NCBI GenBank assembly: GCA_025357055.1
Contig: JANXPZ010000125.1
Span: forward strand, 800 to 64,799
Reading direction: 5' to 3'
DNA from: Candidatus Eiseniibacteriota bacterium
Lineage (GTDB): Bacteria; Eisenbacteria; RBG-16-71-46
Length of the DNA stretch: 64,000 bases
Under the pieces are notes generated by a model. That model saw nothing but the letters and a program-made list of their open reading frames with translations. It did no database searches and was not told where the DNA came from. Made by a program: the position numbers and the translations under genes. This document shows positions 6,256 through 59,180 of the stretch, one piece after another. Every line of letters starts with the position of its first letter. Within the stretch, counting starts at the first letter, position 1.

Positions 6256-6454
6256 GGATCCTCCCGGTTCTCCAACGCCGCGGCCACGGCCAGACTCAAG
6301 TGGCGCATCCTAGCAGGGAAGCGCCCTGGGCGGGGAGCGAAAACGCCCGGTCCGGGTACTACCATCGGCTACCGGGCGGGGAGGTCGGCGTCCGCGTCCG
6401 GTGCCCGATCGGCCGCGCCCCGGCTCGCCGGCGGCGCTTCATGAATCGTCCGGG

Positions 6455-8272: not shown

Positions 8273-9493
8273 CTAGCGGTTCCTCGCGGCCTGGTCGCGG
8301 AAGCGCTTGAGCACGAACAGCGTCAGCAGCACGTAGAACCAGAACGCGATGAGCACGTAGCGGTGCTGGCGCAGGTTCGCGAACTTGCCCTCGAGCTCCT
8401 TCTGCACCTCCTCACCCACCGCGCGGGCGCGGGTGGTGAAGCCGGCCACGACCTCCGGTTGCACGGAGTGCGCGGCGGGCAGCGCTTCACGCAGGTAGGT
8501 GTGCGCCTCCTCGATGCGGGCGTGATAGTCCTCGGTCTGGATCGGGATGGCGTCGGCCTTCGCGACCAGGGCCGCGGCCTTGTCCACCTCGGCCGCGGCG
8601 GTGCGGTATTCGGTCCAGAGCCTGCGGCCCAGGTCGAGCCGCCGCGCGTCGCCGGCGTGGCAGACGGCGCACGACGAGGCGAGACGCTCGGGCCGGGCCG
8701 CCTGCACACCGTGGGCCTCGTGGCAGGACGCGCACTCGGGGCGCCTGCCGCCGCGTGCCACGGCGTGGCCGCCCGAGGTGTAGTAGCGCCGTTCGGCGGT
8801 GTGGCACTGGCCGCACACCTTGTCGACGTCGCCGACGTTGGGCGGATTGGCGCCGTGCACGCCGTGGCAGGACACGCAGGTTGGCGCGCGCAGGTTGCCC
8901 TGCTCGAAGAGCGCCCGCGCGTGGACGCTCGACTGGTACTTCTTCAGCACGTCCTGGTGCTCGCGCGCCCCTGGCATGGCCCGGCTGCCGTGGCAGCGCC
9001 CGCAGGTCTGCGGGATGTTGAGCTGGTTGACGCTGCTCGCCGGGTCGTGGGGCGCGAGGATCTCGTGCGCGCCGTGGCAGTCCGAGCAGACGGCGACCTG
9101 GCGGTCGCCCCGGGCGAGGCGCTGGCCGTGACCCGACGTCTGGTAGAGCGCGTACTGGTCCACGGGCAGGTTGTAGGGGCGCATGCGCCCCTCGTCGGAG
9201 TGGCAGGTGGCGCAAAGTGCCGGGATGTCCTGGCGCGCGGGACGGCCCCGGAAGCCGGCGCCGTGCGCGGCCCCCGCGTCGAGGCTGCGGTCGTTGCCGC
9301 CGTGGCACGAGACGCAACGCACGCCTTCGGGTGCGTGACGGCTCTTCTCGAACTGGACGCGCTCGGCCGGGTGGCAGACGCCGCAGCGGCCCGAGGACGC
9401 GGTGATCGCCGCCGGTCCCGCCGGCGGGACGGTCTGGGCGTGGGCGGTCAGGGTCGCGACCGCGAGGAGCAGGAACACGAGCGGGGTCTTCAT
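8273..9493 (-). CDS. Membrane-anchored multiheme cytochrome c (9 CXXCH), cytochrome subunit of bc complex 2
   Basis: GGAGG RBS 7 nt upstream of the ATG; signal peptide MKTPLVFLLLAVATLTAHA; 9 CXXCH; C-terminal TM helix; clear paralogy to 1319..2554 (e.g. CATCHSDEGRMRPYN.../[15 protein letters not shown]...). Confidence 0.85.
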   Translation of the reverse strand: MKTPLVFLLLAVATLTAHAQTVPPAGPAAITASSGRCGVCHPAERVQFEKSRHAPEGVRCVSCHGGNDRSLDAGAAHGAGFRGRPARQDIPALCATCHSDEGRMRPYNLPVDQYALYQTSGHGQRLARGDRQVAVCSDCHGAHEILAPHDPASSVNQLNIPQTCGRCHGSRAMPGAREHQDVLKKYQSSVHARALFEQGNLRAPTCVSCHGVHGANPPNVGDVDKVCGQCHTAERRYYTSGGHAVARGGRRPECASCHEAHGVQAARPERLASSCAVCHAGDARRLDLGRRLWTEYRTAAAEVDKAAALVAKADAIPIQTEDYHARIEEAHTYLREALPAAHSVQPEVVAGFTTRARAVGEEVQKELEGKFANLRQHRYVLIAFWFYVLLTLFVLKRFRDQAARNR

Positions 9494-31405: not shown

Positions 31406-32893
31406 ATGAGCATGCTCCTCACCACGCTCGCCTTCGTCGCGCTGACGGCGCTCATCGCCTGGTGGCACGTGCGCGGCTCGGGCACCGTCGCGTCGGCTCG
31501 CGACCTGAGGCCGTGTCCGCGCTGCCGCACCCGCTTCGAAGCCGGCGCCTCGTTGTGTCCGGGCTGTGGCGTGCCGCGGCAGGCGTACGAGCTGGTGAGT
31601 GCCCCCGTCGTGGGGGCCGCGGCGCCGCTCGAGGCGGGCGTGAAGCCGCACCCCATCGTCCGCACCAACCTGTGCGTGGGCTGCGGCACCTGCGTGGCGG
31701 CCTGCCCCGAGCCCGGGGCGATCCGGCTGCAGGACCACCGCGCGTTCGTGGACCTCGACGTCTGTGTGCGGCACGGGACCTGCGCGGTGGCCTGCCCGAT
31801 GAACGCCATCGTGATGGCGGCGGGCGCGGCGGTGCAGCGCATCGAGGTGCCGGAGCTGGACGCGAACTTCCAGAGCAACGTGCCCGGGCTCTATGTGGTG
31901 GGCGAGTTGGGCGGGCGCGGGCTCATCAAGAACGCGATCAACGAGGGCCGCATCGCCATCGAGCACGTCGCCCGCGTGCTGGCGGCGGGCCGCCCGCTGC
32001 GGATGGGAGACGCCGGACCCGGGGGCGGTGAGCCGGACTCCCCCGGGCCCTACGACGTGCTCGTGGTGGGCTCGGGCCCCGCGGGGATCTCGGCCGCGCT
32101 CGAGGCGAAGCGCCTGGGGCTGCGCTGTGTCGTGATCGAGCAGGGCACGATCTCGGACACGATCCGCAAGTACCCGCGCCGCAAGCTCCTGCTCGCCGAG
32201 CCCTCGCGCGTCCAGCTCTACGGTGGATTGTGGGTGGCCGATGCCTCGAAGGAGGAGCTGCTGTCGGTGTGGGAGACGATCATCGCGCGCGCCGGCCTGC
32301 GCGTGCGGACCGGCGAGCGGGTCGAGTCGCTGGAGAGCGACGGTGTGCTGTTCCGCGTGCGCACCCCGGGGACCGAGTACCAGGCCCGCAAGGTGCTGCT
32401 GGCGATGGGCCGGCGCGGCACTCCGCGGCGGCTGGGCGTGCCGGGCGAGGAGCTGGAGAAGGCCCTCTATGACATCGTCGAGATGGAGGCGTTCGCGGGT
32501 TGCCGCATGCTGGTGGTGGGCGGCGGCGACAGCGCGATCGAATCGGCGCTCGGGCTCGCCAACCAGCCGGACACCTCGGTCACGCTCTCCTACCGCGGCC
32601 AGGAGTTCCCGCGGCTGAAGGAGCGCAACCGCGAGAAGCTCGAGGCCGCGCTCCAGGCCTCCGGCGAAGGCGGCGCGGGCCGCGTGGAACTGCTGCTCGG
32701 CAGCCGCGTGATCGAGATCCGCCCCGGCGTGGTGGCGCTCGACTGCGCGGGCATGCCCCGCCTGCTCCCCAACGACTACGTGGTCGTCCGCATCGGTGGC
32801 GAGCCGCCGTACCCGTTCATCGAGCGTTGCGGCGTGCGGATCGTGACCAAGGAGATCGCGATCGACACCGGTGCGGAAAGGCGGGCCGGGTGA
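31406..32893 (+). CDS. Membrane-anchored 2x[4Fe-4S] ferredoxin-domain + FAD/NAD(P)-binding (thioredoxin-reductase-like) oxidoreductase
   Basis: N-terminal TM helix; Zn-ribbon-like CPRC...CPGC; CVGCGTCVAACP and CVRHGTCAVACP ferredoxin motifs; DVLVVGSGPAGISAALEA (FAD GxGxxG) and MLVVGGGDSAIESALGLA (NAD(P)). Confidence 0.7.
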   Translation: MSMLLTTLAFVALTALIAWWHVRGSGTVASARDLRPCPRCRTRFEAGASLCPGCGVPRQAYELVSAPVVGAAAPLEAGVKPHPIVRTNLCVGCGTCVAACPEPGAIRLQDHRAFVDLDVCVRHGTCAVACPMNAIVMAAGAAVQRIEVPELDANFQSNVPGLYVVGELGGRGLIKNAINEGRIAIEHVARVLAAGRPLRMGDAGPGGGEPDSPGPYDVLVVGSGPAGISAALEAKRLGLRCVVIEQGTISDTIRKYPRRKLLLAEPSRVQLYGGLWVADASKEELLSVWETIIARAGLRVRTGERVESLESDGVLFRVRTPGTEYQARKVLLAMGRRGTPRRLGVPGEELEKALYDIVEMEAFAGCRMLVVGGGDSAIESALGLANQPDTSVTLSYRGQEFPRLKERNREKLEAALQASGEGGAGRVELLLGSRVIEIRPGVVALDCAGMPRLLPNDYVVVRIGGEPPYPFIERCGVRIVTKEIAIDTGAERRAG

Positions 32894-34683
32894 GGGCGGC
32901 GCTCCCCCCCATTCTGATCATGCTCTCGCTCTCCGTCGCCCTTCCCGCCCGCGCGCAACTGTCACCGGGGCCGCTCAGCGAGGCGCACCGCTCGCTCGAG
33001 GGCGTGACCCAGTGCTTCCAGTGCCACGAGAGCGGCGCGGGGGCCGCGGACGCCAAGTGTCTCGCCTGCCACACCGAGATCGGCTGGCTGCGCGCCCGGA
33101 GCCGCGGGCTCCACGGCCCCGGGCAGTCCACGCCCTGCGTGAAGTGCCATCCCGAGCACGCGGGAGTCGCCTTCCAGCTGGTGCGCTGGGACGAGGGGGC
33201 CGCCGAGCGGTTCGACCACCGGCGCGCGGGGTTCGTACTCGAGGGCCGGCACGGGAAGCTCAAGTGCGCCGAGTGCCATCAGCCGCGCTTCCAGAAGTCG
33301 GGCGCCGCCGCGCTCATCCGCAAGCGTGACCGCGCCGCGAGCTGGCTCGGGCTCGAGCGCTCGTGCACCTCGTGCCACGCGGACCCCCACCAGGGCCAGC
33401 TCGGCGCCACCTGCACGGATTGCCACGGGCCACAGGCGTGGAAGCCCGCGACCGGCTTCGACCACGCGAAGACCGCCTACCCGCTCACCGGTCTGCACGC
33501 GAAGCTCGAGTGCGCGAAGTGCCACCTGTCCCCGCGGCTCGAGCCCGTGACCGACGCACAGGGGAAGCTCGTGCCACGCTGGAAGCCGCTCCCCCACGCC
33601 GACTGCGCCTCCTGCCACAAGGACCCGCATGCCGGGCGCTTCCCGGGCGCCTGCGCGAAGTGCCACACGACGGAGGGCTTCCGGGTGCTCGACGCGAAGA
33701 ACTTCGACCACGAGCGCACGCGCTACCCGCTGCGCGGCCGCCACGCCACGGTCGCCTGTGCGAAGTGCCACGATCCGAAACTGGCCCGGGGGCTCAAGCC
33801 CGCCTTCGACCGCTGCGACCGCTGCCATCGCGACGCCCACGCCGGGCTCGCCACGCTGGCCGGCCGGCCCGCCGACTGCGCCGCCTGCCACGCGGTGCAG
33901 GGCTGGAGGCCTTCGACCTACAGCGTGAGCGCGCACCAGTCCGCGGCCTATCCGCTCGAGGGGCGCCACGCCCTGGTGCCCTGCGCGAAGTGTCATCCGC
34001 AGGGGGCGGACTCGCTCGCCGCCAGGCTGGGCAGCGCCCGCGTGCAGCTGCGGCCCGCCCGTGCGCGCTGCCTCGACTGCCACACCGACCCGCACCGCGG
34101 CCGCTTCGAGGCGGGCGGCGCCCGGGCCAAGGCCACGAGCTGCAGGACCTGTCACACGCTGGACGGCTTCCGGCCCACCCTGGTGGACGCCGCCGCGCAC
34201 GCGCGACTGGGCTACCCGCTGAAGGGCGCGCACCGGGCCGTGCCCTGCCAGGGTTGCCACGCCGAATTGAAGGTCGCACCGCCCGCGGCCGGCGCAACGG
34301 TCCCGGCCGGCGCCAGCGGCGGGGGCCCCGCCGCGAGCAGCCCGGGGCGCACGCTCCTCTTCGCCGATGCGGGCTCCGCCTGTGACGGTTGTCACACGTC
34401 TCCGCACGGCGACCAGTTCAAGGGCCGCCGCGCCCGGGTGAAGGGTGGCCCGGCGGGCGATGCCTGTGACGCCTGCCACGGGATCGAGAGCTTCACGCCC
34501 GCGAATCGTTTCGATCACGAGAAGGACTCGGCGTTCCGGCTCTCCGGAGCGCACGCGAAAGTCAGGTGCGAGGGCTGTCACAAGTCCTCGCGGGATGCGC
34601 AGGGCCGGTCGTTCGTGGTCTACAAGCCCACGCCCGCCCGGTGCGAGGACTGCCATGTCCACCGGCCGCAGGGGGCGTCATGA
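32890..34683 (+). CDS. 20-heme c-type cytochrome (repeated CXXCH...H modules)
   Basis: GTG start overlapping the upstream stop (GTGA) gives a signal peptide VRAALPPILIMLSLSVALPARA; 20 CXXCH with recurring F(D)H...YPL.G.H spacing motifs. Confidence 0.75.
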   Translation: MRAALPPILIMLSLSVALPARAQLSPGPLSEAHRSLEGVTQCFQCHESGAGAADAKCLACHTEIGWLRARSRGLHGPGQSTPCVKCHPEHAGVAFQLVRWDEGAAERFDHRRAGFVLEGRHGKLKCAECHQPRFQKSGAAALIRKRDRAASWLGLERSCTSCHADPHQGQLGATCTDCHGPQAWKPATGFDHAKTAYPLTGLHAKLECAKCHLSPRLEPVTDAQGKLVPRWKPLPHADCASCHKDPHAGRFPGACAKCHTTEGFRVLDAKNFDHERTRYPLRGRHATVACAKCHDPKLARGLKPAFDRCDRCHRDAHAGLATLAGRPADCAACHAVQGWRPSTYSVSAHQSAAYPLEGRHALVPCAKCHPQGADSLAARLGSARVQLRPARARCLDCHTDPHRGRFEAGGARAKATSCRTCHTLDGFRPTLVDAAAHARLGYPLKGAHRAVPCQGCHAELKVAPPAAGATVPAGASGGGPAASSPGRTLLFADAGSACDGCHTSPHGDQFKGRRARVKGGPAGDACDACHGIESFTPANRFDHEKDSAFRLSGAHAKVRCEGCHKSSRDAQGRSFVVYKPTPARCEDCHVHRPQGAS

Positions 34684-34723
34684 GGAAGGAACGCACGAGA
34701 TCCATCCAGTCGGAAGGCTGGTC

Positions 34724-36166
34724 ATGAAGCGCCCCGGCCTGCCGCTGCGGATCGGGGGCATGCGCCTTGCGGCGACGCTGCTGACGGTGCTTCCACTCGC
34801 CGCGCTCGGACTGGTCGCCTTCGCGGCCGAGAAGCCCGCCGCGGTGGAGCCCGAGTACCCGCACGGGAACTTCCAGGGCGACTGCTCGGAGTGCCACGGC
34901 GACGAGGGGTGGAAGCCGGCGCGCATCAGCCGGAAGTTCGACCACGCGAAGCGCTCGGGATTCGCCCTGAACGGGGCGCACGCCTCGCTCCAGTGCGCGG
35001 GCTGTCACGGCACGCTCGACTTCAGCCAGCAGCGCAAGGTCTGCGCCTCGTGCCACCAGGACCCGCACCTCGGCGAGTTCGGGCCCGACTGCGCCCGTTG
35101 CCACACCCCGCGCAGCTTCCTCGACCGCGCGGGCATGGTGCGCATGCACCAGTTGACGCGTTTTCCGCTGGCGGGCGCGCACGCGGGGCTGGATTGCGAG
35201 GGCTGCCACCGCCTGACGTCCCAGGGGCAGCTGCGCTTCAGCTCGACCGGGACGGAGTGCTACTCGTGTCACCGGGAGGACTTCGTGGGCACGACGAGCC
35301 CCGCGCACGTCGCCGGCGGCTTTCCGACCGATTGCATGAACTGCCACACGCCGCTGGCCTGGCGGCCCACGCGCTTCGTCCACACGGGCGCCACGGAATG
35401 CTACTCGTGCCACCGGTCCAACTACGAGCGCACGACGGCCCCGGCCCACGTCGCGGCGGGCTTCCCGACCGCCTGCGCGACCTGCCACACGACCCGGAGC
35501 TGGCTGCCCTCGACGTTCGACCACGCCGCCACGCCGTTCGCGCTGACCGGGGCGCACGTCCAGACGCCGTGCGTGAGCTGCCACGGGAGTCCCTGGCAGA
35601 ACACGCTGGCCACCGACTGCTACTCGTGCCACCGGCCGGCCTACGACGCGACGGCCGCCCCGGCGCACGTCACGGGCGGGATCCCGACCACCTGCACGAG
35701 CTGCCATACCACCGTGGCCTGGCAGCCCGCGACCTTCGCCCACAACGCCACGGCGTTCCCGCTGACCGGGGCGCACGTCCAGACGCCGTGCGTGAGCTGC
35801 CACGGGAGTCCCTGGCAGAACACGCTGGCCACCGACTGCTATTCGTGCCACCGCCCGGCCTACGACGCGACCACGGACCCCGCCCATGCCGCCGCGGGAT
35901 TCCCGACCACCTGCGCCACCTGTCACAGCACGAGCGCGTGGACCGGGGCGACGTTCGACCACACCTGGTTCCCGATCACCTCCGGCCGACATTCGGGGCT
36001 CACATGCTCGACCTGCCACGTCGTCCCCACGAGCTATGCCTCGTTCAGCTGCCTGAGCGGCTGTCATTCGCAGGGCGACACGGATGGCCGCCATTCCAAC
36101 GTCTCCGGCTACCGGTACGACAGCGCCTCCTGCTATTCGTGCCACCCACGCGGGTCGGCCGGTTGA
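34724..36166 (+). CDS. 17-heme c-type cytochrome with an internally repeated 73-aa module
   Basis: GGAAGG RBS 9 nt upstream of the ATG; signal/anchor MKRPGLPLRIGGMRLAATLLTVLPLAALGLVAFA; about 17 CXXCH; repeated unit PAHV.GG.PT.C..CHTT..W.P.TF.H.AT.F.LTGAHVQTPCVSCHGSPWQNTLATDCYSCHRPAYDAT. Confidence 0.8.
   Translation: MKRPGLPLRIGGMRLAATLLTVLPLAALGLVAFAAEKPAAVEPEYPHGNFQGDCSECHGDEGWKPARISRKFDHAKRSGFALNGAHASLQCAGCHGTLDFSQQRKVCASCHQDPHLGEFGPDCARCHTPRSFLDRAGMVRMHQLTRFPLAGAHAGLDCEGCHRLTSQGQLRFSSTGTECYSCHREDFVGTTSPAHVAGGFPTDCMNCHTPLAWRPTRFVHTGATECYSCHRSNYERTTAPAHVAAGFPTACATCHTTRSWLPSTFDHAATPFALTGAHVQTPCVSCHGSPWQNTLATDCYSCHRPAYDATAAPAHVTGGIPTTCTSCHTTVAWQPATFAHNATAFPLTGAHVQTPCVSCHGSPWQNTLATDCYSCHRPAYDATTDPAHAAAGFPTTCATCHSTSAWTGATFDHTWFPITSGRHSGLTCSTCHVVPTSYASFSCLSGCHSQGDTDGRHSNVSGYRYDSASCYSCHPRGSAG
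35531..35872 (+). repeat. Tandem 219-bp-period duplication inside the 17-heme cytochrome gene with a homogenised core of about 111 bp (2 mismatches)
   Basis: 35552-35652 and 35761-35871 are near-identical (81 bp identical, then 2 mismatches in 30); the flanking parts of each repeat unit are diverged. Confidence 0.85.
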
Positions 36167-40183: not shown

Positions 40184-42816
40184 CTAGGGGACGACGGTCA
40201 CGCGGCGGGTGAGGCTCCTGCCTCCATGGGTCAGACGGACGAGATAGATGCCGGGCTCGAGGGCCAGGCCCTCGGAGACGTTCACCAGGTGGGGGCCGAC
40301 GCCTTCCACCTGCCGCCTGGCCGACTGGCGGCCCGCCACGTCGAGCAACTCGAGCGTGGCGGGAGTGGCGTCGGGCAGCGCCAGGGAGATGAACACGCCC
40401 TCCCTGCGCGAAGCGGGGTTGGGCCGGGCGCCGTGGAGAGCGAAGACCGTCGTCGGCACGTCCAGCGGCACGCCCACCCAGACCGCGCTGGTCGTCCGCG
40501 GCGTCTCACCGTCGAGCCACGCCAGCCGGTAGGCGTAATGGGCGCCGGGCGAGACCGTGGCGTCCACGAAGGTCAGTCTCCCGGCGCCGGCACTCGTGGG
40601 CTCGCCGATCGCGACGAAGTCCGTCAGGCTGTCCCGGCGCTCGACCGTGATGACGGGCTGGGGGCTCCCGCTGGTGGTCCAGAACAGGGTCACGCGCCCG
40701 GACGTGGACACGACCCTCGAGAACAGGGCCTCGAACGACGTGGCCAGCAATGGCACGGTGGCGGCGTAGACGTCGGGGTCGGCGTTGCGGCCATCGGCCC
40801 AGGCCGCGTACAGGTCGGCGTGGTTCGCGAACAGCGACAGGTAGTCGCCCTGGTTCGGCATGATGTTGCTGGCGACGTTGGTCCAATCCGTCTGCGTCGC
40901 GTTCAGGGCGCCGACCGGGGTCCAGGTCGTGCCGTTGTCGTCCGAGCGCGACAGGTGGACGTTCGAGCCGCCGCCGCAGATCGAGGCCGAGTCGCGCCAG
41001 TCGTACCAGAGGCAGTAGGGCTTGCTGTCGCCGCCGCTCCCGCCCACCGCCACCTCGGGGAGCCAGTCGTCGTAGCCGGCCGGGCTGTCGCTCGACCGGA
41101 CGGGAGCGGACCAGGTCGCGCCGTCGTCCGACCAGGTCACGAACACGTCGCGGTGGTCGCGCGCTCGCTCGCCTGCGGTGGGCGTGTCCAGGCCCGTGAC
41201 GATCCGGTAGGCGCCGACGCTGCCGTCCCACGAGGCGCAGCGCGCGTAGTAGGTGCCGCTCACGGGCAAGGTGAAGCAGATGAAGTTGGTCAGCCCCGTG
41301 CCGGGCGCGGAGAGAGCGAGGCGGGTCGCGCCATCGCTGCAGAAGAGCCGCAGCGACATGTTGAACGTGGAACTGATGGAATCGGCGTAGAAGATCACGG
41401 TCTGGCCCGCCGTGCCGTTGAAGCTGAAGAAATCGAAGTCCGAGGGTGCCGAGAGGGAGCCCCTCAGGGTCTTGCCGGGGGTGAAAGCATCCGCCGTGGC
41501 CAGCGAGTCGTTGACCTCCGTCTCGGAGACGGAGCCGGTCGTGCCCAGGGCGGCGTCGTAGAAATCGACGGATTCGTTCCAGGCCATGTAGATGCGGCCG
41601 CGATACGGCCCGCTCGAACGGTCCACCGCGATCGAGGGGTAGGTGATGCCGGTGCCCCGGTTGAACCCCGGCGCGCCGCTGCCGAAATTCGAGTAGATCG
41701 AGGCCGCGTTGACGGCCGCGTCGAAGGTCGCACCCTGGTCCGTGGACTTGCGGAGCTTCATGAGGTCCACGTCCACCAGGCCGATGGAGTACCAGGTGAC
41801 GTAGACCTCGCCGTTCGGGCCCACCACGGGGCGGGAACCCTGCACGTATCCGGCTTCGGCGCTGGCGGAGAGGCGCTGGGGGCTGTCCCAGGTCGTGCCG
41901 CCGACCGAGGAGCGCTGGAAGACGATCGTGTCCGCGGCGACGCTGAAGACGGTGTAGGAGAGGTAGAGCCGGCCGCTGAGCGAGTCCGCTGCGAGCCAGG
42001 GCTTGTCGAACAGGACCGAGGCGTTGTTGCCAAGACGCACCAGCGCGGGCGTGCTCCACTGCACCGTGTCGGCGTTGAAGCGCGCCTTCACCAGCGCGAT
42101 GCCGTTCCTCGTGGAGTTGTCATCCACCATCGCGCAGAACCAGAAGTCCCCCGTCTTCTCGTTGACCGTGACCAGCGGATCGCTGGCCCAGCGCCAGCCC
42201 GCCGGCACGGGTGGAGAGCCGCCGTCGGTGTAGGTGACCCCTCCGTCCACCGAGTAGCCGTAGCCCTGCGTGCTGGTCGTGGTAGCGGTCGCGAATCCCA
42301 GACCGTCGTTCCAGGCGACCAGTATGTTCGAGCCCTGCGCGGCGATCATCTGCTCGGCCTGCCCGATGGAGGAGTAGGCGGCGTCCTGCGCGCGGTCGTT
42401 GACGAGCACGTCGGGGCCCAGGGCCGCCGTGGCTCGCGCGGGCGAAGCCGTCCGTGTGCCCGGCGCGCCCGTGCCCGGACCCTGGGGGCCGCCGGCCTCG
42501 TACCAGTCGCCCCGCCGCCGGACTCCGGCGCCGGGCCGCACCTGCCCGGGGTGTCTGCGGATCAGCCGGGTGAGCTCCTTCGCCCGCGCCATCCGTGCGC
42601 GCGCGCCCTGGAGGATGAGTCGCTGCTGCAGACGCTTGAGCGCGGGGGCATACGAGGAGACCTTAGCCCCGGCCGACGGCCCGGAGTACTGGCCGGGCTC
42701 CTCGGCGCGGGCCGCGGACGGTCCGGCGTTCGCGAAGGAGAGCAGGGAGGCCACCAGCGCCAGTGCGAGCACGAACGCTGCGCGGAGCGTGGCGGAGTGG
42801 TGAAGACGCAGGGGCA
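40184..42816 (-). CDS. Secreted BNR/sialidase-superfamily repeat protein with T9SS-type (Por/FlgD-Ig-like) C-terminal domain
   Basis: Signal peptide; Asp-box-like motifs (STDQGATF, SDDGATWS, SDDNGTTWT); C-terminal ~80 aa ...PNPASRREGVFISLALPDATPATLELLDVAGRQ...GIYLVRLTHGGRSLTRRVTVVP. Confidence 0.6.
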
Positions 42817-43084
42817 TGGCGGACGTCCTTCTCGGGGTGTTGGGTTCGGATCCCGCACAAGTCCCGGCCGTGGGGCGAACTGGCCCGGGATTCCTGGCGC
42901 CCCACCCCGGGGCACCAGAGCGCGTGTATTGCTCACGCAGGGCAATCTTCGCACCGCCCCGCGCGCGAGTCCACCCGGCCACCGGGTCCGGCGCGGAGGG
43001 CCCGGCGCGCCGGCCTTCACCCGCCCGCGACGACGACGGGGGCGGGTGAAGGCCGCCCCCGTCGCCGACTACGGTCCGGGACGA

Positions 43085-46000
43085 TCAACGCATGCGCGCG
43101 ATCTTGCGGCTCATGGTCCGGCCCTCGGCGTCGAGGCGCAGGAAGTAGATCCCGGCGCTCGACGGCCGGCCGTCCTGGTCAAGGCCGTCCCACGAGACGC
43201 GGTGCTCGCCCGCGGCCTGCGCGCCGTGCACCAGCAGGCGCACCCGGCGGCCCTGCACGTCGAGCACGTCGAGCGAGGCGTCGCCCGGGCGCGTGAGCGT
43301 GAACGCGATCGAAGTCGAGTGGAGCATCGGGTTGGGGTGCGCATCGGCGAGCATGAGCGTGGCGGGCTGCACGCGGGAGGCCACGTCCACCCACGCGCCC
43401 GGCACGCGGAAGTCGGTCTCGAGGCGGCCGCTGCGCGTCGGCGAGCGCCACGGACCGTTCGGGAAATACACCGACCGGGCGAGGGTGCGCATCTGCCACG
43501 CGTACGGCACACCGCTGGTCAGGCCGGTCGCGCCCGCGAGGAGGCTCGCCATGCTGCCGTAGGCGCCCGGTGCCCCGGTCGCGACCCACCCGGTGATGCC
43601 GCTTGCGCCCGGAGCCGGCAGGCCGACCACCGGCGTGACGCGGTACTGCAGGCGCACCCTGGTGCGGCCCGCGGCCGAGCGGCCGTGCGAGAGGAGGAAG
43701 AGGCCGCCCGGATCGCTCTGGCAACCCGGCTGGATCAGGTGCGCGGGCGCGGTGCTGCGATAGCCGACGCCGAGCTGGAGCGAGCCCGAGCCCTGCGCGC
43801 CATAGCGCACCTGGCAGAGGCCCTGGCGGCCGAGCACATTGCTGTAGCCCGGCTCGCCGAAGATCAGATCGCTCCAGCCGTCGCTGTTCACATCGCCCGC
43901 GTTGGCGAGCGAGTGCCCCATGTTCGCGAACGCCGAGCCGCCGGTCGCGCTCCAGAACGCCGGTGCGCCGGCCGGCAGCGGGCCGCGGAAGACGTGGGCG
44001 GCGCCCTGGTCCTGCGGGCCGCCCTGGTCCTGGAAGACGGCGCCGACGAGCACGTCGCTGAGGCCGTCGCCGTCGACGTCGCCCGCCGAGGACACGGCCG
44101 AGCCGAAGCCGCCGTACGCCTCGCCGCCGTACTGGGTCCACAGCAGGCCCAGCGAACCGTCCGCGATCCCGATGAAGACGCGCGCCGCGCCCTCGCCGCT
44201 GAGGGTGTTGGTGGCCGAGGGAGCGCCCACGATGATGTCGCTGAGCCCGTCGCCGTTCACGTCGCCCGCGCCGGCGACCGAAGCGCCGAAGCGCCAGGAC
44301 GACGCCCTCGCGGAGATCGTGAACGTCGTCGAGGGGCCCGCGGTTGAGCCGTAAGCCACCACCACGTGGCCGGCATCGGGGAAGATCGCCCCCGCCTTGC
44401 CGGGCGTATCGAAGTCGGGCGCGCCGATGACGACGTCGGAGAAGCCGTCGCCGTTGACGTCGCCCGCGCCGGCCACCGAGCTGCCCAGGTGCGCGTCGGC
44501 CTGGCCGCCGCTGGCCGACCACATCGGCGTGGTGCTGAGCCCGCCCGGGCCGCCGCGGTAGACGTAGACACGGCCCTCGCCCGGGAGCGGCGAGGTGGGA
44601 TCGACGCCCATGGGCGCGCCCACGATCACGTCCGCATAGCCGTCGCCGTCCACGTCGCCGGCCGGGGCGACCGAGCCGCCGAACTGGCTGCCGGCGCTGA
44701 AGCCGGTGAGGGTGACGTTCGGGGCGGAGGGCAGCCCGCCCGGGCCTCCGTACCAGATGCGAGCCTGTCCCACGCCGCCCGCGGCGGTGTGGGCGCCGAT
44801 GATGAGGTCGGCGTAGCCATCGCCGTTGATGTCACCGGCCGAGGCGACCGAGACGCCGAGTTGATCGCCCGAGGCCCCAAAGGTGTACCAGGTCGCGGTC
44901 GGCACCAGCCCGGTCGCGCTCCCACGGAACAACTGGATGAGCCCGTTGTTTGACTCACCCGGTGAGATGTAGTTGTACCAGGTGGGCTCGCCCACCAGCA
45001 CGTCGTCGTAGCCGTCGCCGTTGACGTCGCCGGCCGAGGCCACCGACCAGCCCAGGTTCGGGTTCTCGATCGCGGTCTGGGTGATGCTCCAGTTCGAGTA
45101 CGACGAAGGCGGCGAGCCGACCCCGTAGTGCACCAGCACGCGCCCCTCGGAGGACTCGCCATTGGTGAAGTACGGGTCGCCCACGAGCAGGTCGCTGAGG
45201 CCGTCGCCGTTCACGTCACCGGCGGTCATCACGTGGGTCGAGCCGGCCGGGTATCCAAGCAGTTGCTGGATGATGAGCGTGGTGCCCACGCTCTGGGCCA
45301 GGTCCACGCGCGAGCTCTCGCCGATCAGCAGGTCGGGCCGGCCGTCGCCGTTCACGTCGCCGGCGGGTGTCAGCGTGATGCCGAACTGCGCGTTCGCGAC
45401 TCCCGAGGACTCCCACCAGAGCAGGTTCGCGGTCGCGGTGTCCACGCCCGCGGCGGAGCCCCGAAAGACGAACGCCATGCCGGATGCGGTCCCGTAGGTG
45501 TTGTCGGCCGGAGCGCCGACCGCGACGTCGGCGTAGCCGTCGCCATTGAGGTCGCCCGCCGGCGCGACGGTGGCGCCGAACTCCCCGTACTGGTGGTGAC
45601 CGAGGAGCGTGGTGCTGCCGACGAGGGTGCCGAGGTTCGAGAAGCCGGGAGTCAGTGGCAGCCCGGCGGCGGAGCCGTAGATCACGTAGGCCTTGCCCAC
45701 CGGGTCGAAGCTGAACGTCGCTTCGGCCAGTGGGGCACCCACGATGATGTCGTCGAAGCCGTCGGCGTTGACGTCCCCCGCGCCTGCGACCGACGAGCCG
45801 AGGTGGGCGTTGAGGCCGGTGGCCGTGCAGCCGGTCAAAAACCAGTTGTTCGTCATGCTCACGCCCGTGGCCGAGCCATAGAGCACCTCGGCCACGCCAC
45901 TGCCGGGCGATGGCGTGCAGGGCCAGAACCCGGCCGCGCTCGGCATCCCGAAGATGAGGTCGCCGAAGCCGTCACCGTTCACGTCCCCGGCCGGCGCGAC

Positions 46001-46633
46001 GTTGAAACCGTAGAGATTGCTGCCGAAGGACGAGAGCGAGTTGAAGTTCACCAGGTCGAGGCCGCCCGCGGCGCCGAAGTACACGCGCGCCGATCCGTTG
46101 AGATACCAGAACAACACGATGTCGCCCAGGTTGTCGCCGTTCACGTCCCCCGCAGGGGCGACCTGGGCGCCCGGCGGCAGGTCGACGACCGGGTAGCCGG
46201 ACGCCAGCACCGGGCCGCTCGCGCTGCCGAGGTAGAGGTAGAGCGCGCTGTGGTAGGAGTTCACGTCCCCGATCGCGACGAAGTCGCTGATGCCGTCGCC
46301 GTCCACGTCACCGGCCGGGGTCAGGCTCATGCCGAGCATGCGGTTGGCGACATTGGACTCGGACGACCAACCCACGGTCGCCGTCAGCAACGCCGGCTGC
46401 GCCACGCGGTCGGGGACGGCGATCCCCCGCGGCGCGGCGGGCGGGGCGCCTGCACGCGTGATGATGCCGAGGTCGGGCAGGAACGACTGCAGCGCGGCGG
46501 GCGGCGGCGCGGGGACCGGGGTCATGAACGAGTCGAGGTCCGGCAGGCCGGCTGCGGCGGCGCTCGCCAGGGTGAGCGCCAGGGCGACGAGGGCCCCGCC
46601 GAGGAGGCGGGATGGACGGGTGGCGTGGCGCAT
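43085..46633 (-). CDS. Giant secreted FG-GAP/VCBS-repeat protein (about 1180 aa) with T9SS-type C-terminal domain
   Basis: More than 15 repeats of ..AGDVNGDG(Y/F)(A/S)D(V/L)..; C-terminus ...PNPMLHSTSIAFTLTRPGDASLDVLDVQGRRVRLL...GIYFLRLDAEGRTMSRKIARMR, homologous to the C-terminus of 40184..42816. Confidence 0.7.
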   Translation of the reverse strand: MRHATRPSRLLGGALVALALTLASAAAAGLPDLDSFMTPVPAPPPAALQSFLPDLGIITRAGAPPAAPRGIAVPDRVAQPALLTATVGWSSESNVANRMLGMSLTPAGDVDGDGISDFVAIGDVNSYHSALYLYLGSASGPVLASGYPVVDLPPGAQVAPAGDVNGDNLGDIVLFWYLNGSARVYFGAAGGLDLVNFNSLSSFGSNLYGFNVAPAGDVNGDGFGDLIFGMPSAAGFWPCTPSPGSGVAEVLYGSATGVSMTNNWFLTGCTATGLNAHLGSSVAGAGDVNADGFDDIIVGAPLAEATFSFDPVGKAYVIYGSAAGLPLTPGFSNLGTLVGSTTLLGHHQYGEFGATVAPAGDLNGDGYADVAVGAPADNTYGTASGMAFVFRGSAAGVDTATANLLWWESSGVANAQFGITLTPAGDVNGDGRPDLLIGESSRVDLAQSVGTTLIIQQLLGYPAGSTHVMTAGDVNGDGLSDLLVGDPYFTNGESSEGRVLVHYGVGSPPSSYSNWSITQTAIENPNLGWSVASAGDVNGDGYDDVLVGEPTWYNYISPGESNNGLIQLFRGSATGLVPTATWYTFGASGDQLGVSVASAGDINGDGYADLIIGAHTAAGGVGQARIWYGGPGGLPSAPNVTLTGFSAGSQFGGSVAPAGDVDGDGYADVIVGAPMGVDPTSPLPGEGRVYVYRGGPGGLSTTPMWSASGGQADAHLGSSVAGAGDVNGDGFSDVVIGAPDFDTPGKAGAIFPDAGHVVVAYGSTAGPSTTFTISARASSWRFGASVAGAGDVNGDGLSDIIVGAPSATNTLSGEGAARVFIGIADGSLGLLWTQYGGEAYGGFGSAVSSAGDVDGDGLSDVLVGAVFQDQGGPQDQGAAHVFRGPLPAGAPAFWSATGGSAFANMGHSLANAGDVNSDGWSDLIFGEPGYSNVLGRQGLCQVRYGAQGSGSLQLGVGYRSTAPAHLIQPGCQSDPGGLFLLSHGRSAAGRTRVRLQYRVTPVVGLPAPGASGITGWVATGAPGAYGSMASLLAGATGLTSGVPYAWQMRTLARSVYFPNGPWRSPTRSGRLETDFRVPGAWVDVASRVQPATLMLADAHPNPMLHSTSIAFTLTRPGDASLDVLDVQGRRVRLLVHGAQAAGEHRVSWDGLDQDGRPSSAGIYFLRLDAEGRTMSRKIARMR

Positions 46634-46853
46634 GTGGGGCCTCCGAGTCGTGGGGGGACGACGCGGCCGCACGTCCATTCAACCAGTCCCTGCGGATAGG
46701 AATCGCCTATCCAGGCGCGGACCCTAGCACGGTGAAGTCGGGCCGGACAATGAATATTTGACCGGTCCTGTGCTCAAACGTGACGAGTGGATCGCTGGCC
46801 CATCGCCACCCCCCGGGGCGGGAGTCTCCCCGGCCGATTTCAGCCGTCCGGTC

Positions 46854-57081: not shown

Positions 57082-57174
57082 GGAGCCGGGAGGATGGCTC
57101 CGCGGGCGGGTGCCGCGCAAACGAAACCCGGCGTCCGGGATGGACCGGAGCGCCGGGTCTCGTTCAGGTGTGGA

Positions 57175-57939
57175 CTATCGGTACAGGGTCTTGATCTTTC
57201 CCCAGGTCGAACGCTGCGCCGGAACGGTGAGCGGCGTGTCCCACTTGCCATTCGGGTGAGCGGTCCAGCCGACCGGAAGAGAACACGTGCCGGTCGCGGC
57301 CGGAACGCTCGGCGGAGCGGGGCACCAGAGGCCCGACAGCAGGTTGATGGCGTTCTCGACCTGGCCGTAACGCGTGCCACCCGTGCACCAGTAGTTCGTC
57401 CGGAACGAACCGCTGTAGATCCCGCTGATCCGGCTGACGAGCACGTTCAGCGTGTCCATCTGGCCGCTCAGCAGCAGGGTGCCGTCCACGAACGCGTCGG
57501 GGACGACTCCGCCGGCGGGAAGAGCCGGAAGCACGGCGGCCACCGGCGCGTTGCGCGGAGAACCTGCGTAGATGCGGAAGTTCCCGCCCACGTACTTGGT
57601 GTTGTACCGCCTCGTCGAGTCGAGGATCGTCGTGACGGTCCCCTGTGAGACCAGGCCATCCCAGATGAACGTGTACTCGGTGCCGGGGTCGAGCGGGTCG
57701 AGGTCCGCGAACGGGTAGCAGAACTTCGACACGAGGCCGACCACGGTGAGCTGGCTCCCGAACGCGGAGCTGAGGTTGGCGACGTCGTAGGCCGTCTCAT
57801 AGGCCCAGGCGTCACCGTCGAACTTGATCATCACGCCGGTTTCGGCCGGCACCGGGGTGCACTGGGCGGTGGCCACGGTCGCGGACAGCGACAGAGCCAG
57901 CAGCCCCATGACCGCCGCTGCCCAAATCTTGTTCTTCAT
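57175..57939 (-). CDS. Secreted hypothetical protein, paralog A, C-terminus ...TWGKIKTLYR
   Basis: Signal peptide MKNKIWAAAVMGLLALSLSATVATA; no known domain; C-terminal decapeptide shared with 57994..58689. Confidence 0.6.
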   Translation of the reverse strand: MKNKIWAAAVMGLLALSLSATVATAQCTPVPAETGVMIKFDGDAWAYETAYDVANLSSAFGSQLTVVGLVSKFCYPFADLDPLDPGTEYTFIWDGLVSQGTVTTILDSTRRYNTKYVGGNFRIYAGSPRNAPVAAVLPALPAGGVVPDAFVDGTLLLSGQMDTLNVLVSRISGIYSGSFRTNYWCTGGTRYGQVENAINLLSGLWCPAPPSVPAATGTCSLPVGWTAHPNGKWDTPLTVPAQRSTWGKIKTLYR

Positions 57940-57993
57940 AGCGATACCTCCATCATGAAGTCGCTCCGGCGAGGCCGAGAGCGAAATCCTGGG

Positions 57994-58689
57994 CTAGCGG
58001 TAGAGCGCCTTGAGGGCGCCCCAGGTCCGATGAGTTGCCGGCACGGGACCCGGGATGCGGCATTCGCCGGAGATCTGGTGATCGTACCCGTCCGGGATCG
58101 CCGGGTTCGGACGGCCCGCGAGGCCGGAGAGCGTCCAACCATCGCGCTGCGCCTCGGGAATCTGGGCCAGCAACGAACCCTCGTCGAAATGGATGTTCCC
58201 GGTGAAGCCACCCTGGTTGGCTGCGAAGTCGTAGTTCAGCACGAGGAACTCGATGTGTCCGCCGAGGATCACCGTGCCATCGATGAACGTCGATGGCGCG
58301 GTGGCGTTCGGCGGGTTGGCGCTGTACAGCGCCTGGGTGCTGTTGTCCTCGTAGAATCGCCCGCGCCCCGGATTGGCGAACCCGACCTCGAGATAACGGT
58401 ATTCTGGATAGTAGGTGTAGTTCTGCACCGTGAGGTCGTAGTAGTGGTACGTGTACTCGTTCGCGACGATGTCCACGTACGGAGTCAGATAGGCGTCGAA
58501 CGAGGTCACGAACCCGAGTGCCTTGTAGCCTTCCCCGATCGTCAGGTAATTGCCGTCGGGCCCGGGGTTGGGGTTCGGGGATTCGTAGTCGTAGCCGGCG
58601 AATCCCAGCAGGAAGACGTCAGTCTGTGCGAAAGCAGGTGCGGCGATCGTGCTGAGGGCAAGGAGGAGCAGCAACACTGCACGCTTCAT
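57994..58689 (-). CDS. Secreted hypothetical protein, paralog B, C-terminus ...TWGALKALYR
   Basis: Signal peptide MKRAVLLLLLALSTIAAPAFA; Tyr/Asn-rich; visually lower GC than the surroundings. Confidence 0.6.
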   Translation of the reverse strand: MKRAVLLLLLALSTIAAPAFAQTDVFLLGFAGYDYESPNPNPGPDGNYLTIGEGYKALGFVTSFDAYLTPYVDIVANEYTYHYYDLTVQNYTYYPEYRYLEVGFANPGRGRFYEDNSTQALYSANPPNATAPSTFIDGTVILGGHIEFLVLNYDFAANQGGFTGNIHFDEGSLLAQIPEAQRDGWTLSGLAGRPNPAIPDGYDHQISGECRIPGPVPATHRTWGALKALYR

Positions 58690-59180
58690 CAGCCACCTCC
58701 GCGAGGGGTCAAAGTCAGGAGCCTTGATCGGAAGAGAAGATCCGGATGATGCGACTTGGAGTAGCTGTGGAAAGAAGCGCTCCTGCCCGCCTTTCTGGGT
58801 CCATACCGCCGAGGCCAGCAGACCCACTGTAGGCACACGACGCCCCTCGCGCCGCGAGGAGCGTGTCGGGGGATGACGATGAACCGTCGCACGGCGGCGA
58901 AGTTGCGCCCACGCGCAACGGTTCAACGACAATCAAGCGAGTATACGAGCGTGTAACGGAGATGCAAGGTCAGAAAGGGCCCGGAGTGAAAGGGAGACCT
59001 GCGCAGGGGGCGCGCCGCGGTGAATCATCTCTTTCGGGAGACAGGGGCGGCTGCGAGGGTCTCCGGAAAGCCCGCCTCCCGTCGTGAAGGCGCTCAACCC
59101 ACTGGCCCGGAGCGGCTTGCCTTCCGCCCCTCTCCCGCGGGGGCCGGAAACGTCTACGGGCCCGTTCCTCCGGACCCGGG

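What the first reader, a model, noticed from the sequence alone, without database searches (positions are those of the whole stretch)
57175..58689. Two adjacent paralogous secreted proteins ending in a shared decapeptide (S/T)WG(K/A)(I/L)K(T/A)LYR; possible uncharacterised C-terminal tag
Both proteins have classical signal peptides, no recognisable domains, and only modest overall similarity, yet end in almost the same 10 residues (…STWGKIKTLYR, …RTWGALKALYR). The conserved terminus is not preceded by a TM helix, so it is unlike the PEP-CTERM, LPXTG or T9SS sorting signals. It could be a C-terminal beta-strand signal for an outer-membrane or secretion-targeting factor, or a maturation/cleavage site. 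The pair also appears lower in GC than the surrounding DNA.
Basis: seen in the sequence. Interest (0 to 1): 0.5.

Follow-up and report, generated by a model that had tools for sequence, protein, structure and literature searches.

The report
New short C-terminal protein-sorting tag
The ten residues shared by these two secreted proteins are one instance of a short C-terminal tag, undescribed in the libraries I searched, that uncultured Eisenbacteria and related phyla attach to dozens of unrelated secreted proteins and that can replace the type IX secretion domain, so it probably marks an unknown surface-targeting route.

Summary
Two adjacent minus-strand genes, B (58689..57994, 231 aa) and A (57939..57175, 254 aa), encode paralogs at 26% identity. 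Both have signal peptides, no Pfam or NCBIfam domain, and end in ...TWGALKALYR and ...TWGKIKTLYR.

The shared ending is not simply conserved between paralogs.
- All 126 matches sit exactly at an ORF end.
- The 113 full-length carriers form 68 clusters with no BLAST similarity to one another (beta-helix, lamin-tail, NHL and PD40 propellers, CHRD, thioester and others).
- 81% have signal-peptide-like N-termini, and none has a C-terminal TM helix.
- Positions the scan did not select are also conserved, which extends the tag to P-[VT]-P-[VT]-[ER]-x-x-[ST]-W-G-x-[IVL]-K-x-[LM]-Y-R-COOH.
- Synonymous codon positions vary freely, so selection acts on the peptide.

Homologous passenger domains, including the A/B barrel itself, carry either this tail or a T9SS type A domain. 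The window encodes two T9SS-domain proteins as well.

AlphaFold predicts AOC-like/DUF3224-like beta-barrel cores followed by a low-confidence amphipathic helix.

No family model or paper I could search describes the tail. The receptor and mechanism remain unknown.

The parts
57994..58689 (-). Gene B. It encodes a 231-aa secreted protein made of a signal peptide, an eight-stranded AOC-like/DUF3224-like beta-barrel core, a linker and the C-terminal tag.
58627..58689 (-). Signal peptide of B (MKRAVLLLLLALSTIAAPAFA, likely cleaved before QTD).
   Evidence: The n-region (KR), Leu-rich h-region and AFA motif are read from the sequence. Cleavage is inferred; no predictor was run.
57997..58047 (-). 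Extended C-terminal tag of B: PVPATHR-TWGALKALYR-COOH.
   Evidence: It matches the 17-residue consensus from 134 tails. AF2 puts a helix at residues 223-230 with pLDDT 44-57.
58696..58700 (-). GGAGG ribosome-binding site 6 nt upstream of the ATG of B.
   Evidence: Read from the sequence.
57175..57939 (-). Gene A. It encodes a 254-aa secreted paralog of B with the same architecture, and has a conserved Cys directly after the signal peptide.
57865..57939 (-). Signal peptide of A (MKNKIWAAAVMGLLALSLSATVATA, likely cleaved before QC).
   Evidence: Features are read from the sequence; cleavage is inferred.
57178..57228 (-). Extended C-terminal tag of A: TVPAQRS-TWGKIKTLYR-COOH.
   Evidence: Consensus. 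AF2 puts a helix at residues 243-253 with pLDDT about 68.
57947..57951 (-). GGAGG ribosome-binding site 7 nt upstream of the ATG of A. The B-A spacer is 54 nt, so the two genes are probably one operon.
   Evidence: Read from the sequence. The B-then-A gene order is conserved in L107, L131, L132 and L133.
57117..57139 (-). Terminator-like GC hairpin plus T-rich tract 36 nt after the stop codon of A.
   Evidence: One site was found against 1.0 expected in shuffles, so this is weak evidence on its own.

Best explanation
The shared ending is a modular C-terminal targeting tag of about 17 residues. Its consensus is P-[VT]-[PAS]-[VT]-[ERK]-x-x-[ST]-W-G-x-[IVL]-K-x-[LMI]-Y-R-COOH.

What is shown:
- Members of Eisenbacteria and neighbouring FCB-group candidate phyla append the tag to many unrelated, mostly small (median 244 aa) proteins that carry Sec or lipoprotein signal peptides.
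- The tag is selected at the peptide level.
- It must sit at the free C-terminus.
- It has no membrane-spanning segment.
- On homologous passenger domains it is an alternative to the roughly 80-residue T9SS type A sorting domain.

What is inferred: after Sec export, a Pro/Val/Thr-rich linker presents a 9-10 residue amphipathic helix. Its hydrophobic face is W, I/V, L/M and Y, flanked by the invariant K and the terminal R, with an S/T N-cap. A dedicated, lineage-specific envelope component recognises this helix and directs or retains the cargo at the outer membrane or cell surface. The near-invariance of W-G, K and Y-R across phyla argues for a protein receptor rather than generic lipid affinity. 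I could not decide whether the tag is cleaved, whether it drives translocation or only anchoring, or which protein reads it.

The two window genes are one conserved two-gene module (B then A) of tagged, soluble eight-stranded beta-barrel proteins of the AOC/DUF3224-like fold. Their ligand or activity is unknown.
For: - Strict C-terminal position. All 126 DNA-pattern matches in 119 loci end an ORF at TAA, TAG or TGA. None ends at TGG, although the pattern allowed it. Of 17 further loose matches that were not selected for a stop codon, 15 lie 0-7 residues from a stop. One of the two internal cases is a fused tandem duplicate.
- Modularity. With tails removed, 113 carriers fall into 68 BLAST clusters. 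Pfam finds Beta_helix, LTD, NosD, NHL, PD40, CHRD, TED, Big_1, PPC, CBM and others. NCBIfam finds ScyF-NHL, choice-of-anchor W, DNRLRE, ExeM and M36 relatives, which are passenger types that carry PEP-CTERM, GlyGly-CTERM, MYXO-CTERM or T9SS tags elsewhere.
- Secretion. 92 of 113 carriers have signal-peptide-like N-termini and 15 have a lipobox-like motif.
- Independent conservation. Positions -8 to -4 were not in the search pattern yet show 1.4-2.1 bits of information.
- Peptide-level selection. Third codon positions carry only 0.3-0.8 bits, all three stop codons are used, and the downstream DNA is not conserved.
- Interchange with the T9SS domain. Beta-helix passengers carry the tail in L047, L063 and L068 and a CTD in L033. 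Among the top 148 representatives of the A/B superfamily, 108 have the canonical tail, about 20 have degenerate tails, and 9 longer proteins have the A/B barrel at the N-terminus and a T9SS-like domain at the C-terminus. TIGR04183 matches 8 of the 9; 7 pass its cutoff and one is 1 bit short. The window itself encodes two TIGR04183 proteins.
- No TM segment. The highest 19-residue Kyte-Doolittle mean in the last 45 residues is 1.59, and 0 of 113 reach 1.6.
- Helix. AF2 predicts a helix for the tail in both models. The helical hydrophobic moment is 0.55, against 0.40±0.016 for shuffled tails.
- Taxonomic restriction. Labelled hits are Eisenbacteria (about 34 loci), Latescibacterota, Krumholzibacteriota, Fibrobacter or Fibrobacteraceae-labelled and Gemmatimonadota-labelled MAGs.
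Against: - No receptor, peptidase or translocon was identified. The neighbours of A and B are ordinary genes (esterase, GAF histidine kinase, MFS transporter, methyltransferase), and no non-tagged neighbour recurs specifically across the loci.
- T9SS-domain genes sit near tail genes in 37 of 119 loci. That is about the density seen in the window itself (2 per 64 kb), so the proximity shows no link.
- Confidence in the tail helix is low (pLDDT 44-69). The hydrophobic moment is raised for a strand geometry as well (0.52 against 0.36), so the conformation is not settled.
Counts per genome, total numbers and true absence from other phyla (for example Bacteroidota) are not established.
- There is no experimental evidence on localisation or processing.
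Confidence: 0.65

Rival explanations
1. The tail is a passive in-plane membrane anchor. A short basic amphipathic helix sticks periplasmic or surface proteins to a membrane leaflet with no dedicated machinery, as the C-terminal helices of PBP5/PBP6 and the MinD membrane-targeting sequence do.
For: AF2 predicts a helix. The helical hydrophobic moment is well above shuffled tails, and K and R flank a W/I/L/Y face. No machinery was found in any gene neighbourhood.
Against: W, G, K, Y and R are invariant or nearly so across phyla and across 68 protein clusters, and the tail is strictly required at the very C-terminus. Generic lipid-binding helices tolerate wide sequence drift and need not be terminal. 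Nine to ten residues make a weak anchor. Replacement by a T9SS sorting domain on the same passengers points to a sorting role.
Confidence: 0.15
2. The tail is an accessory signal of the type IX secretion system itself. It could be a minimal signal, or a peptide that docks small cargo onto a T9SS component or onto CTD-bearing carrier proteins, rather than marking an independent pathway.
For: The same phyla and the same genome carry TIGR04183 domains. Identical passenger domains use either ending. Tail proteins are small (median 244 aa) and CTD-like ORFs are large (median 701 aa).
Against: The tail does not resemble any part of TIGR04183, and A and B give no hit to it. None of the 119 loci is labelled Bacteroidota, the main T9SS phylum, but the scan was truncated. 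Known T9SS signals are folded domains of 70-100 residues (established knowledge).
Confidence: 0.15
3. The tail is a covalent-attachment signal. The invariant Lys or the C-terminal Tyr-Arg would be used to cross-link cargo to peptidoglycan or LPS, loosely like the ...YRK-COOH end of Braun lipoprotein.
For: Lys is invariant and Y-R is nearly invariant at the C-terminus. The resemblance to the Lpp ...KYRK terminus comes from my own knowledge, not from a test here.
Against: The Lys is four residues from the end, not terminal. The terminal residue is Arg in 130 of 134 tails. No L,D-transpeptidase or sortase-like gene is linked.
Confidence: 0.05
4. The tail is the C-terminal beta-signal of outer-membrane beta-barrel proteins and is read by the BAM complex. 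On this view A and B are small OMPs.
Against: - The best matches are soluble barrels (DUF3224, AOC-like Diels-Alderases).
- The same barrel is the N-terminal domain of large multi-domain T9SS cargo.
- Most other tail carriers are soluble folds such as beta-helix, propeller and lamin-tail domains.
- The last residue is Arg, not an aromatic residue.
- The tail is separated from the barrel by a linker and is predicted helical.
Confidence: 0.03
5. The tail is ordinary paralog or family conservation, or the footprint of a conserved DNA or RNA element (terminator, recombination site) at gene 3' ends.
For: Only two copies occur in this window, and they belong to paralogs.
Against: The tail is found on 68 unrelated clusters. 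Synonymous positions are free, and the stop codon and downstream DNA are not conserved.
Confidence: 0.01

Closest known systems
T9SS type A C-terminal sorting domain (TIGR04183, Por_Secre_tail / FlgD-Ig-like CTD)
   Same: Both are C-terminal signals on Sec-exported, often surface or extracellular proteins of the FCB superphylum. Both occur in the same genomes, including this window. Both are attached to the same passenger families and are interchangeable on the A/B barrel and on beta-helix passengers.
   Different: The CTD is a folded beta-sandwich of 70-100 residues. This tag is 10-17 residues and predicted to be a short helix. There is no sequence similarity and no HMM hit. The tag sits mostly on small proteins.
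PEP-CTERM/exosortase and related TM-type tags (GlyGly-CTERM/rhombosortase, MYXO-CTERM, LPXTG/sortase)
   Same: Both are short lineage-restricted C-terminal tags on many unrelated signal-peptide proteins, with many copies per genome. The passenger repertoire overlaps (NHL/ScyF, choice-of-anchor, DNRLRE, ExeM, M36, LTD, CHRD).
   Different: All of those tags have a signature motif followed by a hydrophobic TM helix and a basic cluster, and an integral-membrane enzyme cleaves them. This tag has no TM segment and none of those motifs. UniRef names one homologue (P0197) a PEP-CTERM protein, but no PEP-CTERM model matches it.
C-terminal beta-signal of outer-membrane proteins (BAM substrates)
   Same: It is a conserved signal of about 10 residues at the extreme C-terminus of envelope proteins, and it contains Gly and aromatic residues.
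   Different: The beta-signal ends in an aromatic residue and forms the last transmembrane strand. Here the end is Tyr-Arg, the prediction is helical, and the passengers are soluble domains.
C-terminal amphipathic membrane-anchor helices (PBP5/PBP6) and the MinD membrane-targeting sequence
   Same: It is a short, basic amphipathic C-terminal helix without a TM segment.
   Different: Those helices are specific to one family and poorly conserved in sequence. This tail is nearly invariant across many families and phyla.
DUF3224 / allene-oxide-cyclase-like eight-stranded beta-barrels (passenger domains of A and B only)
   Different: Sequence identity is 4-10% and no family model matches. A and B are secreted and tagged, and their function is unknown.

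Membership tests
PEP-CTERM / exosortase sorting signal (TIGR02595 and relatives) | Match to a PEP-CTERM model, or a PEP motif near the C-terminus | tested here: not met
   NCBIfam gave no hit at E<=1 for A and B, none at E<=0.01 across 97 tail carriers, and none at E<=10 for P0197, which UniRef names PEP-CTERM.
PEP-CTERM / LPXTG / GlyGly-CTERM / MYXO-CTERM (TM-type tags) | Hydrophobic transmembrane helix followed by basic residues at the C-terminus | tested here: not met
   The highest 19-residue Kyte-Doolittle mean in the last 45 residues is 1.59. None of 113 proteins reaches 1.6.
T9SS type A sorting domain (TIGR04183) | C-terminal domain of 70-100 residues matching TIGR04183 | tested here: not met
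   A and B give no hit. As positive controls, two proteins in the same window score 29.8 and 26.5 bits against a cutoff of 23.
OMP beta-signal (BAM) | Aromatic last residue on the terminal strand of a membrane barrel | tested here: not met
   The last residue is Arg in 130 of 134 tails. The tail is predicted helical after a linker. Most carriers have soluble folds.
Braun-lipoprotein-type peptidoglycan attachment | C-terminal Lys as the attachment residue | tested here: not met
   The terminal residue is Arg. Lys sits at position -4 from the end.
Generic modular C-terminal sorting tag (operational definition) | Strictly C-terminal position | tested here: met
   126 of 126 pattern matches end at a stop codon, and 15 of 17 unselected matches lie within 7 residues of a stop.
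Generic modular C-terminal sorting tag (operational definition) | Found on many unrelated passenger domains that carry N-terminal signal peptides | tested here: met
   68 clusters and about 30 Pfam families. 92 of 113 carriers have signal-peptide-like N-termini.
Generic modular C-terminal sorting tag (operational definition) | Interchangeable with other sorting tags on homologous passengers | tested here: met
   Homologous passengers end either in the tail or in a T9SS CTD.
Generic modular C-terminal sorting tag (operational definition) | Co-occurs across genomes with a dedicated sorting enzyme or receptor | not testable with these tools
   This needs whole-genome phylogenetic profiling. Only 8-kb loci were available and the genome scan was truncated.
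AOC-like / DUF3224 beta-barrel (passenger fold of A and B) | Eight-stranded closed barrel superimposable on family members | tested here: inconclusive

The most novel reading that the evidence does not exclude
The tail marks a previously unrecognised protein-sorting pathway of Eisenbacteria, Latescibacterota, Krumholzibacteriota and Fibrobacterota-like bacteria. In this reading, a TM-less amphipathic signal of 10-17 residues at the C-terminus is read by a dedicated, still unidentified outer-membrane or periplasmic receptor or translocon. The pathway would work in parallel with type IX secretion and would handle a large set of small surface or extracellular proteins.
Probability: 0.4. Interest if true: 0.8.

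Novelty: new variant of a known kind. Interest (0 to 1): 0.7.

Why it matters
C-terminal sorting tags such as LPXTG, PEP-CTERM, GlyGly-CTERM and the T9SS CTD have each led to the discovery of a sorting machine and have made surface proteomes predictable from sequence. This tag has neither a TM helix nor a folded domain, so it does not fit any known recognition mechanism.

It also labels a large share of the otherwise 'hypothetical' secreted proteins of several uncultured phyla. A simple pattern or HMM for it would annotate many proteins at once: the A/B superfamily alone has 534 clusters at 50% identity. It would also give a handle for finding the unknown machinery by phylogenetic profiling.

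Tried and rejected
- **Tail profile against the 5.8-billion-protein index.** The 40-residue version collected only 9 candidates, so it gave no census, and that search was wasted.
- **afdb50 fold search.** The library was not available.
- **Gene neighbourhoods.** I looked for sorting machinery around A and B and among 1,841 ORFs from the 119 loci. Only T9SS-CTD proteins recur, at roughly the background density, so nothing specific emerged.
- **Literature.** Seven searches on the motif, the phyla and sorting-tag terms found nothing relevant.
- **Viral contigs as a chance control.** There were only 7 hits, and all look like genuine tails at ORF ends. They therefore do not estimate the chance rate. 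They do show that chance matches are rarer than real ones.
- **Explanations rejected.**
  - Paralog-only conservation.
  - A conserved DNA or RNA element.
  - An OMP beta-signal.
  - Horizontal transfer as the cause of the GC dip.
  - The PEP-CTERM label that UniRef gives to P0197.
Full report
**1. What is in the window**

The finding's coordinates delimit two minus-strand ORFs exactly.
- Gene B is 58689..57994 (231 aa) and gene A is 57939..57175 (254 aa). They are 54 nt apart, and each has a GGAGG 6-7 nt before its ATG.
- A GC hairpin with a T-rich tract follows A. This is weak evidence, because one such site is expected by chance.
- B begins MKRAVLLLLLALSTIAAPAFA|QTD and A begins MKNKIWAAAVMGLLALSLSATVATA|QC. 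These are classical Sec signal peptides as read from the sequence.
- The two proteins are 26% identical (E=3e-11).
- They end in PVPATHRTWGALKALYR* and TVPAQRSTWGKIKTLYR*.
- Neither matches any Pfam or NCBIfam model.
- The motif occurs nowhere else in the six frames of the window.
- The region is lower in GC (0.63-0.66 against about 0.72). GC3 remains 0.83-0.89, so the dip lies in codon positions 1 and 2. It reflects the Tyr, Asn, Phe and Thr-rich composition of these beta proteins and does not indicate foreign DNA.

**2. The two families**

A has 121 close homologues and B has 358. All are unnamed, and the source labels are Eisenbacteria, or 'Gemmatimonadales' for one MAG. The tail is at the extreme C-terminus in essentially every full-length member, even at 34% overall identity.

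The B-then-A gene order is kept in distant genomes whose other neighbours differ (L107, L131, L132, L133). The pair is therefore a conserved module. The flanking genes (esterase, GAF histidine kinase, MFS transporter, methyltransferase) suggest no function.

AlphaFold2 gives confident models for both proteins, with pLDDT 87.4 and 85.6. Each has an all-beta core and a short terminal helix (residues 243-253 in A, 223-230 in B), and the helix has low confidence at pLDDT 44-69.

**3. The tail is a general tag**

I back-translated [ST]WGx[ILVM]Kx[LIM]YR plus a stop codon into a DNA pattern and scanned one genome per GTDB species.

- **Taxonomy.** Labelled records are mainly Candidatus Eisenbacteria, with Latescibacterota, Krumholzibacteriota, Fibrobacter or Fibrobacteraceae-labelled and Gemmatimonadota-labelled MAGs. 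There are many unlabelled 'bacterium' MAGs. A few short contigs sit in bins of other phyla and are probably mis-binned.
- **Position.** All 126 matches close an ORF with TAA, TAG or TGA. None reads TGG, although the pattern allowed it. In the same 842 kb a looser peptide pattern found 17 more copies that were not selected for a stop, and 15 of them lie 0-7 residues from a stop codon. One of the two internal copies is the junction of a fused tandem duplicate.
- **Carrier diversity.** With tails removed, the 113 full-length carriers form 68 single-linkage BLAST clusters at E<1e-3. Pfam finds right-handed beta-helix, lamin-tail, NosD, NHL, PD40, Chlamydia-PMP repeats, CHRD, thioester, Big_1, PPC, CBM and other domains. 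NCBIfam recognises ScyF-type NHL, choice-of-anchor W, DNRLRE, ExeM and M36-peptidase relatives, and it has no model for the tail itself. In other lineages these passenger types carry PEP-CTERM, GlyGly-CTERM, MYXO-CTERM or T9SS tags.
- **Secretion signals and size.** 92 of 113 carriers have a signal-peptide-like N-terminus, and 15 have a lipobox-like motif, for example ...GCGDDD. None has a TM-like stretch in the last 45 residues. Their median length is 244 aa.
- **Copies per genome.** Several MAGs appear repeatedly in the truncated list. One locus, L070, holds at least nine tandem tagged lipoprotein paralogs.

**4. Anatomy of the tag and level of selection**

I aligned 134 tails on the Trp. 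Positions -8 to -4 were not part of the search pattern, yet they are conserved at 1.4-2.1 bits as P-[VT]-[PAS]-[VT]-[ERK]. Cys is frequent at -9 to -11. This extends the tag to about 17 residues, and both window proteins match the conserved V-P core of this extension (B the full P-V-P).

In the DNA, third codon positions of the tail carry only 0.3-0.8 bits, all three stop codons are used, and the 30 nt downstream are not conserved. Selection therefore acts on the peptide and not on a DNA or RNA element.

The last nine residues are amphipathic. The helical hydrophobic moment is 0.55 against 0.40±0.016 for shuffled tails. A strand geometry is also above shuffles, so the AF2 helix call is plausible but not proven.

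**5. Relation to type IX secretion**

- 37 of the 119 loci also encode large proteins that end in the ...WDGxDxxGxxxxSGVYFxRL...K motif.
- In the window itself, the proteins at 40184-42982(-) and 43085-46678(-) match TIGR04183 above its cutoff.
- This proximity is about the density expected from the window (2 per 64 kb), so it does not show a link.
- More telling, homologous beta-helix passengers carry the tail in L047, L063 and L068 and a CTD in L033.
- A profile of the A and B families, searched against 1.84 billion cluster representatives, found 534 relatives. Of the top 148, 108 have the canonical tail and about 20 have degenerate tails (for example ...SWSKIKTLYR and ...SWGRIKALHR). Nine are longer proteins with the A/B barrel at the N-terminus and a T9SS-like CTD at the C-terminus.
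- TIGR04183 matches 8 of those nine; 7 pass its cutoff and one (P0296) is 1 bit short. In the 315-residue P0296 the CTD directly replaces the tail.
- The tail and the T9SS sorting domain are therefore alternative C-terminal modules on the same cargo.

**6. Interpretation**

Five properties are the operational hallmarks of a protein-sorting tag, and the tail has all of them:
- a strictly C-terminal position;
- carriers that are unrelated to one another and have signal peptides;
- several copies in some genomes;
- a restricted set of lineages;
- interchange with a known sorting domain.

I therefore conclude, at about 0.65 confidence, that the tail is a modular targeting signal read by a lineage-specific envelope component.

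The mechanism is inferred. A Pro/Val/Thr-rich linker would present a short amphipathic helix whose invariant W-G, K and Y-R, together with the free carboxylate, are recognised by a protein partner. Cross-phylum invariance argues against mere lipid affinity.

The rivals are listed with their evidence in the Rival explanations section: a passive membrane anchor, a T9SS accessory signal, a covalent-attachment signal, an OMP beta-signal, and a family-specific or DNA-level artefact. The last two are effectively refuted. I found no receptor, so whether the tag drives translocation, anchoring or processing remains open.

**7. Comparison with known systems and novelty**

The tag fails every membership test I could run.
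- It fails the TM-type tags (PEP-CTERM, LPXTG, GlyGly-CTERM, MYXO-CTERM), because it has no TM helix and no HMM hit.
- It fails the T9SS CTD test, because there is no hit while controls in the same window are positive.
- It fails the OMP beta-signal test, because the terminal residue is Arg and the passengers are soluble.
- It fails the Lpp-type terminal Lys test.

UniRef labels one B homologue 'PEP-CTERM sorting domain-containing protein', and no model supports that name.

Pfam (2025 copy) and NCBIfam 20.0 have no model for the tail, and seven full-text literature searches found nothing. This is absence from the libraries I could search, not proof that the tail has never been noted.

I classify it as a new variant of a known kind, a C-terminal sorting tag. 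There is a substantial chance, about 0.4, that it marks a new sorting pathway.

**8. Limits**

- The genome scan was truncated, so totals, counts per genome and true taxonomic limits are unknown.
- The tail-profile search of the large protein index failed for technical reasons.
- Signal peptides were judged by a heuristic.
- Start codons in the loci were chosen automatically.
- The tail conformation rests on low-confidence AF2 regions.
- No experimental data exist.

Noticed in passing
window 40184-42982 (-) and 43085-46678 (-): Two large secreted proteins (932 and 1197 aa) end in T9SS type A sorting domains. TIGR04183 scores are 29.8 and 26.5 bits against a cutoff of 23. The organism therefore has type IX-type cargo alongside the short-tail proteins.
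   Followed up: partly
L070 1649-7850 (+), MAG F1F2.bin.167 contig JBJXGV010000065.1: A tandem array of at least nine paralogous lipoprotein genes of about 225 aa (...GCGDDD after the lipobox) all end in the tail or a variant (GLYR, GIFR, GLFR, LLFSP). One gene (1649-2908) is a fused doublet that keeps an internal tail at the junction.
   Followed up: partly
L107 1340-2838; L131 7267-8756; L132 7243-8753; L133 7269-8705: The B-then-A gene pair is conserved as an adjacent two-gene module in divergent genomes whose other neighbours differ. This suggests the two barrels work together, possibly as a heterodimer.
   Followed up: partly
P0291 (1884 aa), P0299 (2627 aa), P0320 (1143 aa) and similar: The A/B-type barrel also occurs as the N-terminal domain of very large multi-domain proteins that carry metalloprotease-like regions, beta-propeller repeats and a T9SS CTD. 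It is therefore a mobile extracellular module, not only a stand-alone protein.
   Followed up: partly
P0197 (UniRef100_A0A849SIP3): UniRef names this B-family member 'PEP-CTERM sorting domain-containing protein', but it has the WGAIKALYR tail, no TM helix and no PEP-CTERM HMM hit. The name is probably an annotation error. A related member, P0227, shows only a faint N-terminal resemblance (E=0.26) to the NF038129 PEP-CTERM family.
   Followed up: yes
window 5521-9493 (-), and CxxCH-rich ORFs around 32500-36166 (+): There is a cluster of multihaem c-type cytochromes: an NrfH-like protein with extra haem sites at 6455-8272 and a DmsE-family decahaem-like protein at 8273-9493. This hints at extracellular or periplasmic electron transfer.
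   Followed up: no
window 57117-57139 (-): A GC-rich hairpin with a T-rich tract lies 36 nt after the stop codon of gene A, which fits a B-A bicistronic unit. The scan finds as many such sites in shuffled sequence, so the evidence is weak.
   Followed up: partly
L124-L130 (IMG/VR contigs): All seven matches of the tail DNA pattern in the viral-contig collection are ORF ends, and at least four have the typical upstream P-V-E or P-V-x context. Tagged genes therefore sit on contigs classed as viral, either as prophage or host DNA or as phage-borne copies. I did not examine this further.
   Followed up: no
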